DNA from: a virus
Lineage: Duplodnaviria > Heunggongvirae > Uroviricota > Caudoviricetes
DNA length: 46,150 bases
Direction: 5' to 3' (one strand)
IMG/VR virus record: IMGVR_UViG_2695420763_000017
Location: 1-46,150 of that record
A program made the translations under genes and the position numbers. The notes under the pieces are model-generated. The model was not told where the DNA came from. It searched no databases and saw nothing but the letters and a program-made list of their open reading frames with translations. Shown here piece after piece: positions 27,705 through 29,940 of this stretch (position 1 is its first letter; the number at the start of each line of letters is the position of its first letter).

Positions 27705-27890
27705 TTGAAATCGCAGACATGTCGTTTGCAACGTGCTGCGGCTGGCTGGCGAACTTTCGGTAGTGCAAGTATTGATAATTTCCATCTGTTATCGATATGC
27801 GTATTTTTTACACGAGAGGTTTTGCACGTTCTCCCCTTATCTTTTATGACTGCACGTCACTGTATCTAAGACTGCTATATGGCTAGTAGC
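27705..27890 (+). repeat. leader element copy A (about 180 bp, paralogous to 29759-29940)
   Basis: Roughly 70 percent identical by eye to copy B, colinear; contains the inverted repeat GCAGACATGT...ACGTGCTGC. Confidence 0.55.
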
Positions 27891-28037
27891 GGAGGTAGCG
27901 GAGTGGAATGGCAAATCGGTTCTATCGCTACATTCCAAACTTTATTAAAATTAGCTGTGTTTCTAAGACTTCTTAGGAACGCCATATTGTAAAACACTTA
28001 TATACGTTGTAAGTTGTTAAAATAGATATATTAGGTG

Positions 28038-28066
28038 TTGACTTCTCAGTTAACGCATCAGATTAT
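28038..28066 (+). promoter_or_regulatory. putative promoter for the HTH-HNH gene
   Basis: TTGACT (28038-28043), 17-nt spacer, GATTAT (28061-28066); weak -10. Confidence 0.3.
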
Positions 28067-28117
28067 ACTGATAAGTTTGTATAAAAATATTAAAAGATTA
28101 CAAAGCAAGGAGTATGG

Positions 28118-29671
28118 ATGGGTATTGAAAGTGAATTGATAGAATTCCTTGAGCGCAGCGTCAAAGATGGTGCGAATAAGGCTAGGGATATTGAAATTGT
28201 AAAATTCTACTATGGTCTAAATGACTCGCCTTGGCCCACATTAGATGAAACTGCAAGCCGATTTGGTGTTGGTACCAGAGAAAGAATTAGGCAGTTACTA
28301 AATTTCAAATTCCGAAATAATGTCAGCAAAAACTCTATTCCATCGCTAGGCAAAGTTATTAAAGTTTTGCAGTCCAGAGAATATTGGTTGCTCTCAGAGT
28401 TTGAAGAAGAAACTTATAATGCGGGGCTGGTCGAGAAGGAAAGCCACTTAAAGGGAATATTTAATTTAATTGAGGATGTCAACCTTGATTGTGGGTTCGA
28501 TTTTTACACTCCGGAGTTAAAGCGAGCCACGAGAAACTCGATTGTAACTAGTAAGAATATATTCTTGATCAGGAATTCTGCTATCAAGAACGTTGAAAAG
28601 TTGCTCAAAAAAGCAAAAATTCTCCCGGGACGCTGCGGTATTGCAAATTTAAATTATCTAAAAGAAGAGATGGGTCAGTACTATTCGCTCGTTTCATTGT
28701 TAATTGCAAATGCGCCTACGTCTTGGGTTAGAGTGATTGACGATAATTACTGGTATGTTTTTGAGAATAGAGATAACACCATTATCAACTACAGCGAAAA
28801 GGTTTTTGGTGTTTTTGAAAACTGTGATCCATCTAGATTGGCAGAGACATATAGAAATGCCCTTAATGGAAGGAGTAATAAGTACCCGTATCCACCAGCA
28901 GAAGTTATCGATGACTATTTAAGAAGTTCTATCTATATGATTAATACGCATTCTGGACTAAAATTCATCGGTGAAAAAAACAAGCTTAATGAGATCGAAA
29001 AAGATTTAATATCTTTTTTGGACTCTTCCGGAAGCGTCTCATTTTCAACGCTTTATAAATATTTGTTGCAAAAAGGTTATGGGAAGCCGCATATATTAAA
29101 AACTACGAATTTTTCACCATTAGTATATGTAGATAAGACCAAAGGTAGAAAACATTATATGTATAGCTTAGTTGGTCATCGAATTTCTGCACATAATAAC
29201 ACCTCAGAGATGGATAAATATGAAATTTATCTTCGTAGATTAAGAGCTCTTCTCGATGTTGGAACGGATGAGACAAGAGAGCAGAAAGCTAGAAAAGAGC
29301 AGCATATTTTACAAGAGTGGCTTTTTAAGGATAAAACGCATGAGACCTGCGCTATCTGCGGAAAAGAGTTCAGCGTAAAAACGTTAGTAACGGCACATAA
29401 AAAGCCGAGATCAGACTGCAATGATGCAGAACGCTTAGATCCATATATTGTAATGCCAGTGTGTTTGATGGGGTGCGATTATCTTTACGAAAATATGTAT
29501 ATCTATATTGACGGTACTGAAATTAAACGTGGTCTGACGTTATCGAACGCAAGGAGTGAATCAAGAGTCATTGATGACCTTGTTGGGCGAAAAGTTGAAC
29601 CAAAATGGCTTTTAGGAAATCAGTCTTATTTTCGTTCGCCTAACAAAGAATTGCAGCGGATAAGTCGCTGA
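28118..29671 (+). CDS. HTH (sigma-70 region-4-like) plus C-terminal HNH-like nuclease protein, unknown function
   Basis: AAGGAG RBS; N-terminal LDETASRFGVGTRERIRQLL; C-terminal CAICGKEF...TAHKKPRSDCNDAERLD...PVCLMGCD (about residues 410-455); AT-rich. Confidence 0.75.
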   Translation: MGIESELIEFLERSVKDGANKARDIEIVKFYYGLNDSPWPTLDETASRFGVGTRERIRQLLNFKFRNNVSKNSIPSLGKVIKVLQSREYWLLSEFEEETYNAGLVEKESHLKGIFNLIEDVNLDCGFDFYTPELKRATRNSIVTSKNIFLIRNSAIKNVEKLLKKAKILPGRCGIANLNYLKEEMGQYYSLVSLLIANAPTSWVRVIDDNYWYVFENRDNTIINYSEKVFGVFENCDPSRLAETYRNALNGRSNKYPYPPAEVIDDYLRSSIYMINTHSGLKFIGEKNKLNEIEKDLISFLDSSGSVSFSTLYKYLLQKGYGKPHILKTTNFSPLVYVDKTKGRKHYMYSLVGHRISAHNNTSEMDKYEIYLRRLRALLDVGTDETREQKARKEQHILQEWLFKDKTHETCAICGKEFSVKTLVTAHKKPRSDCNDAERLDPYIVMPVCLMGCDYLYENMYIYIDGTEIKRGLTLSNARSESRVIDDLVGRKVEPKWLLGNQSYFRSPNKELQRISR

Positions 29672-29758
29672 AGACGGTGTTATGTTGAGACTGCTAACTT
29701 CCTGTTTTTGTTGGTGTTGTCCTAACACTGTCTAATCATGATTGGTGGGCTGGCGGGA

Positions 29759-29940
29759 GTTGAAACCGCAGACACGTCGTATGCAAGAACGTGCTGCGGT
29801 TGGCTGGTCAGCTTCTGATAGTGAGAATATTGAATGATTTCAAGCTGTTATCGATTTTACGTATTTTTTGCATGAAAAGATTAGCACCTCATCCCACCGC
29901 TCCTCCATGATTTTACACCACTGTCTCTAGAGCTCTGTGT
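29759..29940 (+). repeat. leader element copy B (paralogous to 27705-27890)
   Basis: Colinear similarity to copy A including inverted repeat GCAGACACGT-N12-ACGTGCTGC. Confidence 0.55.

What the first reader, a model, noticed from the sequence alone, without database searches (positions are those of the whole stretch)
27705..29940. 517-aa HTH plus HNH nuclease cargo gene flanked by two paralogous leader elements
Seen: the 28118-29671 product has an N-terminal sigma-70 region-4-like HTH (TASRFGVGTRERIRQLL) and a C-terminal HNH-like Cys/His cluster. Two colinear ~180-bp elements of roughly 70 percent identity (27705-27890 and 29759-29940) sit upstream of this gene and of the next gene pair, each with the inverted repeat GCAGACA(C/T)GT-N12-ACGTGCTGC. 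Inference: a DNA-targeting nuclease (type IV restriction-like or abortive-infection-like) and its neighbours under common regulation via a shared operator or RNA leader.
Basis: partly seen in the sequence, partly recalled or inferred. Interest (0 to 1): 0.7.

Follow-up and report, generated by a model that had tools for sequence, protein, structure and literature searches.

The report
Nuclease cassette between prophage recombination modules
A previously uncharacterised DNA-binding HNH nuclease sits as a swappable cargo cassette in an E. coli prophage, and the two "leader" repeats around it are copies of a ~195-base boundary module, also present in phage lambda, at which different prophages recombine to exchange such cassettes.

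Summary
ORF 28118-29671 (517 aa) has a sigma-70 region-4 HTH, a winged-helix array and a C-terminal four-Cys HNH-like fold. It is flanked by two colinear ~195-nt repeats, 27705-27898 and 29761-29955 (72% identical).

The repeats are not gene-specific leaders. They belong to a dispersed non-coding module found in 3604 of 5426 complete E. coli genomes and in phage lambda's b region. The module always lies downstream of the tail-fibre genes (with tfa or pin where present), in one orientation, whichever strand the neighbouring cargo is on.

Compared with a lambda-like prophage, the nuclease cassette is 99-100% identical. Identity falls to 80-85% inside both repeats and to nothing beyond them. This is the signature of relaxed homologous recombination.

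The module starts with a conserved hairpin that shows compensatory variants. On the leftward strand it looks like an intrinsic terminator; on the rightward strand it is the 3' end of Rfam CssrB. Copy B carries a fossil ssrA attachment junction.

The protein family is unannotated. It occurs alone in defence islands of other genera, without the module. Relatives swap the C-terminus for other nuclease domains. It is most likely a stand-alone restriction-like defence nuclease.

The nuclease inference is supported; the shared-regulation inference is not.

The parts
26000..26132 (+). Degenerate third copy ('copy 0') of the boundary module, directly after the tail-fibre-assembly gene stop (25977). 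Its hairpin has decayed.
   Evidence: nhmmer model positions 22-151, E 2.5e-7. The repeat finder family D1. No stable fold.
26192..27308 (+). Cargo cassette 1: NeuD/PglB/VioB-family sugar acetyltransferase (26192-26881) plus MaoC-like dehydratase (26883-27308).
   Evidence: Pfam and NCBIfam hits.
27705..27898 (+). Boundary module copy A (full length, 194 nt). Hairpin 27711-27741: stem TCGCAG-A-CATGT / ACGTG-CTGCGG, 8-nt loop.
   Evidence: nhmmer E 2.7e-52, with a profile that includes this copy. Alignments A1 and A4. Leftward-strand RNA hairpin -12.4 kcal/mol, z -2.6, followed by AUUUCAAUUUUU. A recombination joint lies at ~27775.
28038..28066 (+). Sigma-70-like promoter candidate (TTGACT-17-GATTAT) for the nuclease gene. 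It lies in cassette-specific DNA, not in the repeat.
   Evidence: Consensus scan only.
28118..29671 (+). Cargo cassette 2: 517-aa protein. Sigma-70 region-4 HTH (aa ~9-80), tandem winged-helix array (aa ~85-360), and a C-terminal four-Cys zinc HNH-like domain (aa ~385-500; H427, D441, D454, E458).
29675..29769 (-). Fossil ssrA attR junction. On the minus strand, the last 27-28 nt of the tmRNA gene (29743-29769) are followed by ~68 nt of the chromosomal DNA that lies downstream of ssrA in E. coli (29675-29742).
   Evidence: 26/28 match to the ssrA 3' end. Same flank as K-12 CP4-57 attR / psaA. Present in 9 of 32 distinct full copies.
29761..29955 (+). Boundary module copy B (full length, 195 nt). 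Hairpin 29766-29799: stem CCGCAG-A-CACGT / ACGTG-CTGCGG, loop CGTATGCAAGA.
   Evidence: nhmmer E 4.5e-63, with a profile that includes this copy. Leftward-strand hairpin -20 kcal/mol, z -4.3, followed by UUUCAAC. Rfam CssrB positions 145-180 match 29762-29798 on the + strand (23.7 bits). A recombination joint lies at ~29852.
30061..30965 (+). Cargo cassette 3: a 145-aa protein (phrog_22626, unknown function) and a 155-aa protein with only weak coiled-coil-type matches.
31247..31520 (+). Right-hand conserved boundary ('module 2') next to the attachment site. It is shared with other prophages and with lambda (~27,323-27,461). Its first ~70 nt are an imperfect inverted copy of the right end of the boundary module.
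   Evidence: blastn blocks start at 31247-31258 in L254, L251, L004 and L002. nhmmer reverse-strand hits E 4e-4 and 3e-3. Alignments.
31521..31566 (+). 3' 46 nt of tRNA-Thr(CGU) thrW. This is the right attachment junction of the prophage and the left junction of the adjacent P4-type island (integrase 31733-32947).
   Evidence: 45/46 identical to K-12 thrW. Homology to strain D9 ends at 31568. Integrase domains.

Best explanation
The region 25978-31566 is the accessory region of an e14-like prophage, lying between its tail-fibre genes and its thrW attachment junction. It is the equivalent of phage lambda's b region.

It holds three cargo cassettes. They are separated by copies of a ~195-nt non-coding boundary module and closed on the right by a second conserved module next to the att site.

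The boundary module has two roles.

(a) Shown: it is the homology at which unrelated temperate phages recombine, so that whole cassettes are exchanged. The nuclease cassette with both flanking copies is found in e14-like prophages at thrW and at prfC, and in a lambda-like prophage. The crossover points lie inside the two copies.

(b) Inferred: its conserved 5' hairpin is a transcription stop. Mainly it acts as an intrinsic terminator for leftward transcription coming from cargo genes, dinI/int or the host flank, which keeps that transcription out of the tail operon. It may also act as a 3'-end stem for rightward transcripts.

The module is not a leader or operator for the nuclease gene. That gene has its own promoter region.

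The 517-aa product is inferred to be a stand-alone DNA-targeting nuclease. A region-4 HTH and a winged-helix array bind DNA, and the zinc-stabilised HNH domain cuts it. It would act as a restriction-like (type IV-like or similar) defence against incoming phage or plasmid DNA.
For: Distribution and anatomy:
- The module matches in 3604 of 5426 complete E. coli genomes, 5759 places in all, up to 8 per genome. It matches 194 phage records, including lambda at 24162-24348.
- In 36 distinct full copies both ends are sharp and both flanks are unrelated.
- In every annotated locus examined it lies downstream of tail-fibre, tfa or pin genes in the same orientation. The adjacent cargo is on either strand.
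- Arrays of 2-3 same-orientation copies with 1-4 kb cassettes between them recur in many prophages.

Recombination:
- Window versus L255, a lambda-like Lom/Stf/Tfa prophage: ~80% identity left of 27775, 99-100% from 27776 through the gene to 29852, ~85% from 29853 to 29955, and none beyond.
- In L253 the homology ends at 29862, inside copy B, and continues into dinI and prfC. In L254 the nuclease slot holds a lipase gene instead.
- This matches the 'HR trace' model of relaxed homologous recombination between temperate and defective phages (PMC3945230).

Hairpin:
- Folding energy is -12 to -25 kcal/mol across 42 distinct copies.
- Compensatory stem variants exist while the loop is kept (L163, L146, L184, L137, L005, L046, L200).
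- The 6 nt 5' of the stem are 62% A across 28 different flank classes, against 27-30% background. This corresponds to a U-tract on the leftward strand.
- In L171, L253 and mEp460, and where annotated in Stx-phage records, the first ~105 nt of the module follow the dinI stop codon and end in hairpin plus U-run.

Protein:
- AF2 model, pLDDT 85.8.
- BFVD HNH hits. PHROG HNH hit.
- Invariant Cys4/His/Asp residues.
- 244 clusters at E<=1e-30, nearly all ~510 aa.
- Relatives with the same N-terminal 360 aa carry Pfam HNH or NOV_C instead.
- Neighbours elsewhere: a YobI-type ATPase; AAA_15+HNH and a reverse transcriptase with an integrase; Vsr-Dcm-HpaII.
- In K-12 e14 the same slot (pinE-...-attR) holds McrA.
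Against: - No expression data: neither terminator activity nor any transcript end was measured here.
- On the leftward strand copy B has only UUUCAAC after the stem, and lambda's full copy has no U-run.
- Covariation within the full-length copies is not above the shuffling control.
- The ~150 nt after the hairpin are conserved, and neither terminator function nor recombination alone obviously requires that.
- The very sharp, shared right end of the module in ~20 different contexts is not what simple homologous exchange predicts. It hints at a site-specific or palindrome-centred insertion step.
- For the protein, Pfam HNH models do not reach significance (E 0.12-0.13). PADLOC has no match. No phenotype is known. 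The gene is split into two ORFs in strains D9 and D4.
Confidence: 0.7

Rival explanations
1. Shared cis-regulatory leader or operator. Each copy is the 5' regulatory region of the gene or genes to its right, bound by a common regulator or folding as an RNA leader, so that the nuclease and its neighbours are co-regulated.
For: In this window all three copies lie upstream of + strand cassettes. The hairpin and its loop sequence are conserved. The nuclease carries several DNA-binding domains that could in principle bind such a site.
Against: - Elsewhere the module lies between or downstream of minus-strand genes: lambda ea47/ea31, dinI, GIY-YIG, DUF262 and lipase.
- It is 105-220 nt from the start codons, and the promoter-like sites lie outside it.
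- No consensus promoter lies inside it (and my reading of the consensus).
- The fetched loci of nuclease homologues in other genera (L174-L181) lack it.
- RNAalifold finds no conserved leader fold (-9 kcal/mol, covariation term -0.5).
Confidence: 0.07
2. The module encodes a leftward small RNA, or a conserved 3'-UTR-derived sRNA, of ~100-190 nt that ends at the hairpin terminator and has a trans-acting function. Recombination at it would be a by-product of its conservation.
For: - Terminator-like hairpin with a U-rich tail on the leftward strand.
- ~60 nt upstream of the terminator are very well conserved (TTGAATGATTTCCAG block).
- In many phages exactly this part is the 3' UTR of dinI.
- The widespread 'half' copies end close to a TAAAAT box on that strand.
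- Rfam already lists the hairpin, on the other strand, as the 3' end of a Shigella sRNA candidate, CssrB.
Against: - No convincing -35/-10 pair (and my reading of the consensus).
- No Rfam family for the body of the module.
- No significant covariation outside the hairpin.
- No literature hit for the sequence.
- This reading is not exclusive of the best explanation.
Confidence: 0.15
3. The module is, or still functions as, a site-specific recombination site. It would be the arm of an ssrA-type attP, with its left edge at the T-loop crossover point, and cassettes would be captured or integrated there by a tyrosine integrase in an integron-like way. Homologous exchange would only spread them afterwards.
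For: - The left boundary of all copies coincides with the T-stem/T-loop of an ssrA core (CTGCGG|TTTCAA).
- 9 of 32 distinct full copies still carry the ssrA 3' end plus chromosomal flank. Several other flank classes keep only the AGTTGAA T-loop.
- Both ends are sharp in many contexts.
- Same-orientation copies bracket the cassettes.
- The hairpin is an inverted repeat with a conserved spacer, as recombinase core sites are.
- In HK633 the depositors annotated this very stretch as attP.
- The cassette slot is bracketed by imperfect inverted repeats.
Against: - The observed joints lie at different internal positions (~27730, ~27775, ~29852, 29862) and carry flanking 80-85% 'traces'.
- The module occurs next to integrases of different families and at different integration sites: ssrA, thrW, ydfJ, ttcA, prfC and att-lambda.
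- No recombinase gene is consistently linked to it.
- The 11-nt spacer is long for a tyrosine-recombinase overlap region.
Confidence: 0.12
4. The repeats are remnants of a MITE or IS element.
For: It is a short, multi-copy, non-coding element with discrete ends.
Against: - Neither terminal inverted repeats nor target-site duplications were seen at the aligned ends and flanks of the copies.
- Location and orientation relative to the tail genes are fixed.
- With the search pattern used it is found essentially only in Escherichia/Shigella prophages; the other hits are lambda contamination.
- Frameshifting indels exclude a conserved ORF.
Confidence: 0.02

Closest known systems
VcaM4I / TagI (SRA-HNH modification-dependent restriction endonucleases; PDB 6yex, 6ghs)
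   Different: There is no SRA domain. Sequence identity is only 12-18%. The last metal-ligand position is Asp/Glu rather than His/Asn. Dependence on DNA modification is untested.
Winged-helix fusion endonucleases, DpnI/HhiV4I-like 6mA-dependent type IV enzymes (PMC11037411)
   Same: They combine winged-helix DNA-reading domains with HNH or other nuclease domains. Relatives swap the nuclease domain, as this family does.
   Different: Those enzymes read Dam-type 6mApT, which would be self-toxic in Dam+ E. coli. No sequence relationship was detected here, and this protein has an extra region-4 HTH and several winged helices.
McrA of prophage e14 (E. coli K-12)
   Same: It is an HNH-type type IV enzyme carried in the same genomic slot of a related prophage, between pinE and the right attachment junction.
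   Different: It has an unrelated N-terminal domain and is 277 aa. The boundary module gave no nhmmer hit in the K-12 e14 region fetched, including the pinE-mcrA-attR segment (L126).
Phage lambda b region (ea47, ea31, ea59)
   Same: The order of conserved non-coding pieces is the same: a hairpin copy after tfa, then a cassette, then the full module (lambda ~24,158-24,353), then a cassette, then module 2 (~27,323-27,461), then att.
   Different: The cargo genes differ and are on the other strand. Lambda's full copy lacks the U-run after the hairpin.
Mosaic-boundary 'HR traces' of temperate phages (De Paepe et al. 2014, PMC3945230)
   Same: A near-identical exchanged block is flanked by ~80% identical segments and then by unrelated DNA. 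This is exactly the signature that paper attributes to relaxed homologous recombination by Rad52-like recombinases.
   Different: Here the flanking homology is one specific, discrete, multi-copy module. It has its own hairpin and sharp ends, and it is reused at several slots within one phage.
Defence hotspots of P2-like phages and P4-like satellites (Rousset et al. 2022, PMC9122126)
   Same: A fixed position in a temperate-phage genome holds highly variable anti-phage cargo.
   Different: The phage groups differ (e14-like and lambdoid). The slots here are delimited by repeated non-coding modules rather than by core genes.
Rfam RF02799 CssrB (Shigella sRNA candidate)
   Same: Its last 36 positions are the module's hairpin, read on the + strand.
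   Different: The first 144 positions are unrelated, cassette-specific sequence. The window scores 23.7 bits against a gathering score of 76.

Membership tests
HNH (beta-beta-alpha-metal) nuclease superfamily | Beta-beta-alpha-metal fold | tested here: met
HNH (beta-beta-alpha-metal) nuclease superfamily | Catalytic His at the end of the first strand, and a structural Cys4 zinc site | tested here: met
   H427 sits at the end of strand 423-427. C411/C414 and C449/C453 are invariant in 44 homologues.
HNH (beta-beta-alpha-metal) nuclease superfamily | Asn/His metal ligands in the helix | tested here: inconclusive
   The usual N and H are replaced by invariant or nearly invariant D441, D454 and E458. 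The geometry was not examined.
HNH (beta-beta-alpha-metal) nuclease superfamily | Significant match to a curated HNH sequence model | tested here: not met
   Pfam HNH_5 E 0.13 and HNH_2 E 0.12. Only PHROG phrog_3106 reaches E 8.8e-4. Relatives sharing the N-terminal part do carry PF01844.
Type IV (modification-dependent) restriction enzymes | A nuclease fused to a modified-base reader, with no cognate methyltransferase | tested here: inconclusive
In the homologue loci examined the family is not in a conserved operon with a partner gene, although the A. pittii locus has an adjacent Vsr-Dcm-HpaII restriction-modification system.
Type IV (modification-dependent) restriction enzymes | Cleavage depends on DNA modification | not testable with these tools
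   Needs biochemistry or phage assays.
Sigma-70 family RNA polymerase sigma factor (the RefSeq name in strain F8704-2) | Region 2 (core binding, -10 recognition) in addition to region 4 | tested here: not met
   Only region 4 matches (aa ~9-80). There are no Pfam hits at all, and NCBIfam scores of 15-19 bits against cut-offs of 350-800.
Known anti-phage defence systems (PADLOC-DB 2.0) | Match to a model of a described system | tested here: not met
   No family at E<=0.01.
Rfam CssrB (RF02799) | Full-length match at or above the gathering score of 76 bits | tested here: not met
   23.7 bits, model positions 145-180 only. A full match exists in another locus, L129.
Mosaic boundary / 'HR trace' sequences of temperate phages | Diverged (~80%) homology flanking a recently exchanged, near-identical block | tested here: met
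   Identity runs 80% | 99-100% | 85% | none across 27600-30120 versus L255. Further joints in L253 and L254.
Intrinsic (Rho-independent) terminator | GC-rich stem-loop followed by a U-run | tested here: inconclusive
   The leftward strand has a stable stem and a U-rich tail in most copies. The tail is weak in copy B and absent in lambda. The consensus scanner did not call it, because the loop exceeds 8 nt. No termination assay was done.
Integron attC / tyrosine-recombinase cassette site | Fixed crossover point and a linked integrase | tested here: not met
   Joints fall at several internal positions. Neighbouring integrases belong to different families or are absent.
MITE / IS remnant | Terminal inverted repeats and target-site duplications, with scattered insertion sites | tested here: not met
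   Neither is seen in 36 aligned copies with flanks. Location and orientation are fixed.

The most novel reading that the evidence does not exclude
The tail-fibre-to-att region of E. coli lambdoid and e14-like prophages, lambda's b region included, may be an organised cassette array with dedicated capture sites.

Each cassette is bounded by a ~195-nt module. The left edge of the module is the T-loop crossover point of an ssrA-type att core. Its right edge is the inverted repeat of the att-proximal module.

On this reading new defence genes are inserted site-specifically, either by an integrase acting on the hairpin or by breakage at the centre of a long palindrome. They are then shuffled by Red-type recombination. 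That would make the region a phage analogue of an integron.
Probability: 0.12. Interest if true: 0.8.

Novelty: new variant of a known kind. Interest (0 to 1): 0.5.

Why it matters
It gives a concrete, testable substrate for something usually described only statistically: how temperate phages swap defence and other cargo genes.

The substrate is one discrete module. It is present in most E. coli genomes examined and in phage lambda itself, so it can be studied in the best-developed phage genetics system. The module marks the slots where cargo sits, which makes it a practical handle for mining new defence genes between its copies.

The cassette examined here adds a candidate single-gene defence nuclease. 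It has an unusual reader region (a sigma region-4 HTH plus a winged-helix array), and it belongs to a family of a few hundred sequence clusters that has no Pfam, PADLOC or literature annotation.

It also corrects two likely database errors: a RefSeq annotation that calls the protein a sigma factor, and the HK633 annotation of the module as attP, which rests on similarity alone.

Tried and rejected
- **Rfam, whole window at gathering thresholds.** The only hit is int-alpA, outside the finding. Permissive scans add only the CssrB 3' hairpin.
- **RNAalifold on 36 full copies.** Weak consensus (-9.2 kcal/mol) and no convincing covariation.
- **Explicit pair counting for the hairpin and a candidate GGCTGG/CCAGCC helix.** Not above the shuffling controls, because the full copies are too similar. 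The compensatory evidence comes only from the more divergent half copies.
- **Coding hypothesis for the module.** This was prompted by PGAP's 'capsid protein' and 'YdfV' pseudogene calls and by a 54-aa ORF in copy A. It is rejected because 1-nt indels, for example T5 versus T6, shift every frame between copies.
- **Homology of the module body to tmRNA.** Rejected: only the last 28 nt to the left of copy B match ssrA.
- **First collection scan.** The degenerate pattern returned mostly chance hits and had to be filtered with nhmmer.
- **Genome-collection scan.** Many of its non-Escherichia hits are identical to lambda DNA, on short low-coverage contigs, which points to contamination in those assemblies.
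- **Pfam, PADLOC and PDB sequence searches on the protein or its C-terminus.** No significant nuclease hit.
- **Foldseek against the PDB.** No match reached E 0.001.
- **afdb50 fold library.** Not available.
- **Literature searches.** Searches for the module's sequence, for ydfJ/ydfK sRNAs, for CssrB and for lambdoid defence hotspots found nothing that describes the module.

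
Full report
**Setting**

The window is E. coli DNA. Its first part, up to 31566, is a prophage with e14-like tail-end genes: baseplate J (22995-24053), YmfQ (24044-24628), a tail fibre (24632-25390) and a tail-fibre assembly protein (25390-25977).

From 25978 to 31566 there are no phage structural genes, only small cargo cassettes.

At 31521-31566 lie the last 46 nt of tRNA-Thr thrW, 45/46 identical to K-12. In strain D9 the homology to the window stops there and the chromosome continues with the yagP-like LysR pseudogene and paoD. 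This is therefore the right attachment junction of the prophage.

In the window a P4-type island follows in tandem: an integrase at 31733-32947 and the int-alpA RNA at 32992-33059.

**Check of the observation**

The 517-aa ORF, the region-4-like HTH and the Cys/His cluster are all present.

The two repeats are real. They span 27705-27898 and 29761-29955 and are 71.6% identical. Each matches a profile of the module at E 1e-52 to 1e-63; that profile was built from six copies including these two, so the values are not an independent test.

The inverted repeat exists, but its spacer is 8 nt in copy A and 11 nt in copy B rather than 12.

A third, decayed copy lies at 26000-26132, immediately after the tfa stop codon. 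The layout is therefore:

tfa | copy 0 | NeuD-MaoC cassette | copy A | nuclease cassette | copy B | two-gene cassette | second conserved block from 31247 | thrW'.

**What the repeats are**

They are copies of a dispersed module, not something private to this locus.

- A blastn search with copy A finds matches in 3604 of 5426 complete E. coli genomes, 5759 places in all and up to eight per genome.
- Copy B finds 194 phage records, including phage lambda at 24,162-24,348.
- A pattern scan of one genome per bacterial species found the module only in Escherichia and Shigella, apart from contigs identical to lambda DNA, many of them short and low-coverage, which point to contamination.

An alignment of 36 distinct full copies with their flanks shows a discrete unit. 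The left edge is sharp (...TGAAA|CCGCAG) and so is the right edge (...GCCAGGAGCGGAC(A/G)T|), and the DNA on both sides is unrelated.

One-nucleotide indels rule out a conserved reading frame.

Three nested size classes share the left edge:

- hairpin only, ~45 nt;
- 'half', ~105-118 nt;
- full, ~195 nt.

In every annotated locus I opened, the module lies downstream of tail-fibre, tfa or pin genes and in the same orientation relative to them. The genes next to it are unrelated and lie on either strand:

| Locus | Neighbouring cargo |
|---|---|
| lambda | ea47, ea31, ea59 |
| L003 | an uncharacterised gene after pinE |
| L004 | a DUF262 protein |
| L005 | a GIY-YIG protein |
| L171, mEp460, L253 | dinI |
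| Qin | ynfT-ydfK |
| L251 | an RM system |
| L254 | a lipase |

Arrays of two or three same-orientation copies with 1-4 kb cassettes between them recur in many prophage contigs.

Lambda has the same plan:

1. a hairpin copy right after tfa;
2. ea47;
3. the full module;
4. ea31-ea59;
5. a block (~27,323-27,461) that is 85% identical to window 31250-31384;
6. attP.

The window's accessory region is thus the counterpart of lambda's b region.

**Recombination at the module**

The nuclease cassette with both flanking copies occurs in three settings:

- e14-like prophages at thrW (D9, D4);
- an e14-like prophage at prfC (L253);
- a prophage with lambda-type Lom, Stf and Tfa (L255).

Aligning the window with L255 gives this identity profile:

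| Window coordinates | Identity to L255 |
|---|---|
| left of ~27775 (inside copy A) | ~80% |
| 27776 to 29852 (through the gene, into copy B) | 99-100% |
| 29853-29955 (rest of copy B) | ~85% |
| beyond 29956 | none |

In L253 the homology ends at 29862, inside copy B, and the locus continues with dinI and then prfC. In L254 the nuclease slot holds a lipase gene on the other strand.

A near-identical block flanked by ~80% segments and then by unrelated DNA is the 'HR trace' signature. De Paepe et al. attribute it to relaxed homologous recombination by phage Rad52-like recombinases (PMC3945230).

That the module is the substrate for cassette exchange is therefore shown by sequence. Which enzymes carry out the exchange is inferred.

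**The hairpin**

The module begins with a stem-loop: CCGCAG-A-CACGT / loop CGTATGCAAGA / ACGTG-CTGCGG.

- Across 42 distinct copies it folds at -12 to -25 kcal/mol on either strand, apart from a few degenerate copies (down to -6 kcal/mol).
- In the window, on the leftward strand, copy B gives -20 kcal/mol (z -4.3) and copy A gives -12.4 kcal/mol (z -2.6). Copy 0 no longer folds.
- Divergent copies change the stem in a compensatory way while keeping the loop: CCGCGG/CCGCGG in L163 and L146; CCGCCGTCTGT/ACGGGCGGCGG in HK633; CACGC/GCGTG in L137; CCGTAG/CTACG in L005; and entirely different stems in L046 and L200.
- Within the closely related full copies, covariation is not above the controls.

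The 6 nt 5' of the stem are 62% A across 28 different left-flank classes, against 27-30% background, and 21 of the 28 contain AAA. On the leftward strand this is a U-run directly after the stem.

In L171, L253 and mEp460, and where annotated in Stx-phage records, the first ~105 nt of the module are what follows the dinI stop codon, and they end in hairpin plus UUUUUC.

On the rightward strand the hairpin is the last 36 positions of the Rfam Shigella sRNA candidate CssrB.

My reading is that the hairpin is a transcription stop at the edge of the tail operon. It acts mainly against leftward transcription from cargo, int/dinI or the host flank. This is inferred, not shown. I give it about 0.6.

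**Origin**

The 87 nt to the left of copy B, read on the minus strand, consist of two parts:

- the last 27-28 nt of ssrA (26/28 identical);
- the chromosomal sequence that follows ssrA in E. coli, the same as at the CP4-57 right junction of K-12.

Nine of 32 distinct full copies carry this fossil junction, and several other flank classes keep only the T-loop heptamer AGTTGAA. The common left edge of all copies thus coincides with the T-stem/T-loop of an ssrA-type att core.

This suggests that the module began as the arm of an ssrA attP, and that aberrant excision carried it into phage accessory regions together with a piece of host flank.

It also keeps alive a site-specific rival. So does the very sharp right end of the module, which is an imperfect inverted repeat of the start of the att-proximal block at 31247.

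Against present-day site-specific exchange stand the scattered positions of the joints and the variety of linked integrases and integration sites.

**The protein**

- The family has 164 close homologues, all about 510-520 aa, all 'hypothetical' and with no precomputed Pfam domain. There are 244 clusters at E<=1e-30 among 1.8 billion representatives.
- The AF2 model is confident (pLDDT 85.8).
- Residues ~9-80 are a sigma-70 region-4 HTH.
- The middle of the protein gives many winged-helix matches (MecI, MarR, cullin WHB, SelB, TFIIIC), consistent with a tandem winged-helix array.
- Residues C411, C414, H427, D441, C449 and C453 are invariant, and D454 and E458 nearly so, as expected for a zinc-stabilised beta-beta-alpha-metal site. 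The last ligands are acidic rather than Asn/His.
- Curated HNH sequence models do not reach significance. A PHROG HNH model does, weakly.
- Relatives that share residues 1-360 end instead in a canonical Pfam HNH (P0249) or in a NOV_C domain (P0259). This is the effector swapping typical of restriction-like enzymes.
- It is not a sigma factor: region 2 is absent.
- Homologues stand alone in variable islands: next to a YobI-type ATPase in Klebsiella; next to an IS3 element in Enterobacter; between AAA_15+HNH and a reverse transcriptase, with an integrase a few genes away, in Pseudomonas; and next to Vsr-Dcm-HpaII in Acinetobacter. The loci fetched by then (L174-L181, Klebsiella and Enterobacter) gave no hit to the boundary module; the Pseudomonas and Acinetobacter loci (L256-L258) were not scanned for it.
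- In K-12 e14 the same slot carries McrA.

I infer a stand-alone DNA-targeting defence nuclease, with confidence about 0.6. What it recognises is unknown. A Dam-type 6mA reader, as in the known winged-helix fusion enzymes (PMC11037411), would be self-toxic in E. coli.

**Verdict**

The nuclease inference is supported at the level of fold and context. The 'shared leader or operator' inference is not supported.

The repeats are a dispersed boundary module, apparently undescribed as such. It marks and mediates cassette exchange in the b-region-like accessory region of E. coli temperate phages, and it carries a terminator-like hairpin.

Novelty is moderate. Both the kind of protein and the kind of recombination are known. 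The specific protein family and the specific module, present in lambda itself, appear to be new.

Noticed in passing
window 26000-26132: A third, decayed copy of the boundary module lies directly after the tfa stop codon, so all three cargo cassettes in the window are preceded by a copy. Its hairpin no longer folds.
   Followed up: partly
window 29675-29769 (minus strand): Fossil ssrA right attachment junction: the last 27-28 nt of the tmRNA gene plus ~68 nt of the chromosomal DNA downstream of ssrA, embedded in a prophage that sits at thrW. The same fossil accompanies 9 of 32 distinct full copies of the module elsewhere.
   Followed up: yes
window 31247-31520, and lambda ~27,323-27,461 (L002 7161-7299): A second conserved non-coding block lies next to the attachment site. 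It is shared with lambda (85% over 139 nt) and with other prophages. Its first ~70 nt are an imperfect inverted copy of the right end of the boundary module, so the last cassette slot is bracketed by inverted repeats. In L207 the module is fused directly to this block, which looks like an empty slot. It contains a 50-aa ORF (31303-31455). Its function is unknown; it could be related to lambda's sib/tI region, but I did not test that.
   Followed up: partly
window 31521-31566 and 31733-33059: A 46-nt 3' fragment of thrW marks the prophage end. A P4-type island (integrase, int-alpA RNA, and further genes to the right) is integrated in tandem at this fragment.
   Followed up: partly
L001 8219-9772 (strain D9; the same in D4): In the two genomes that are 99.9% identical to the window over this region, the nuclease gene is annotated as two ORFs (8219-8617 and 8666-9772). 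This suggests inactivation by a stop or frameshift, possibly counter-selection against a toxic nuclease.
   Followed up: no
window 26192-27308: The first cargo cassette encodes a NeuD/PglB/VioB-family sugar acetyltransferase and a MaoC-like dehydratase. This pair looks more like surface-polysaccharide or lipid modification than like a nuclease-type defence.
   Followed up: no
window 30061-30965: The third cassette encodes a 145-aa protein (phrog_22626, unknown function) and a 155-aa protein with only weak coiled-coil-type matches. The pair is unannotated and is replaced by other genes in related prophages.
   Followed up: no
L184 3518-3598 (phage HK633, NC_019719.1 20680-20760): The depositors annotated the first half of the boundary module as attP because it resembles a K-12 intergenic region (ykgJ-yagV). 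Given how widely the module is dispersed, this attP assignment is probably unsafe.
   Followed up: no
L253 6219-7772 (NZ_CP050998.1): RefSeq names the 517-aa protein 'sigma-70 family RNA polymerase sigma factor'. Only region 4 is present, so the name is misleading.
   Followed up: yes
L002, L173, L182, L183, L141, L129 (tfa genes): The Rfam family IS009 matches inside the tail-fibre assembly genes of lambda, Qin, Rac and related prophages. That 'RNA family' is probably just conserved coding sequence.
   Followed up: no
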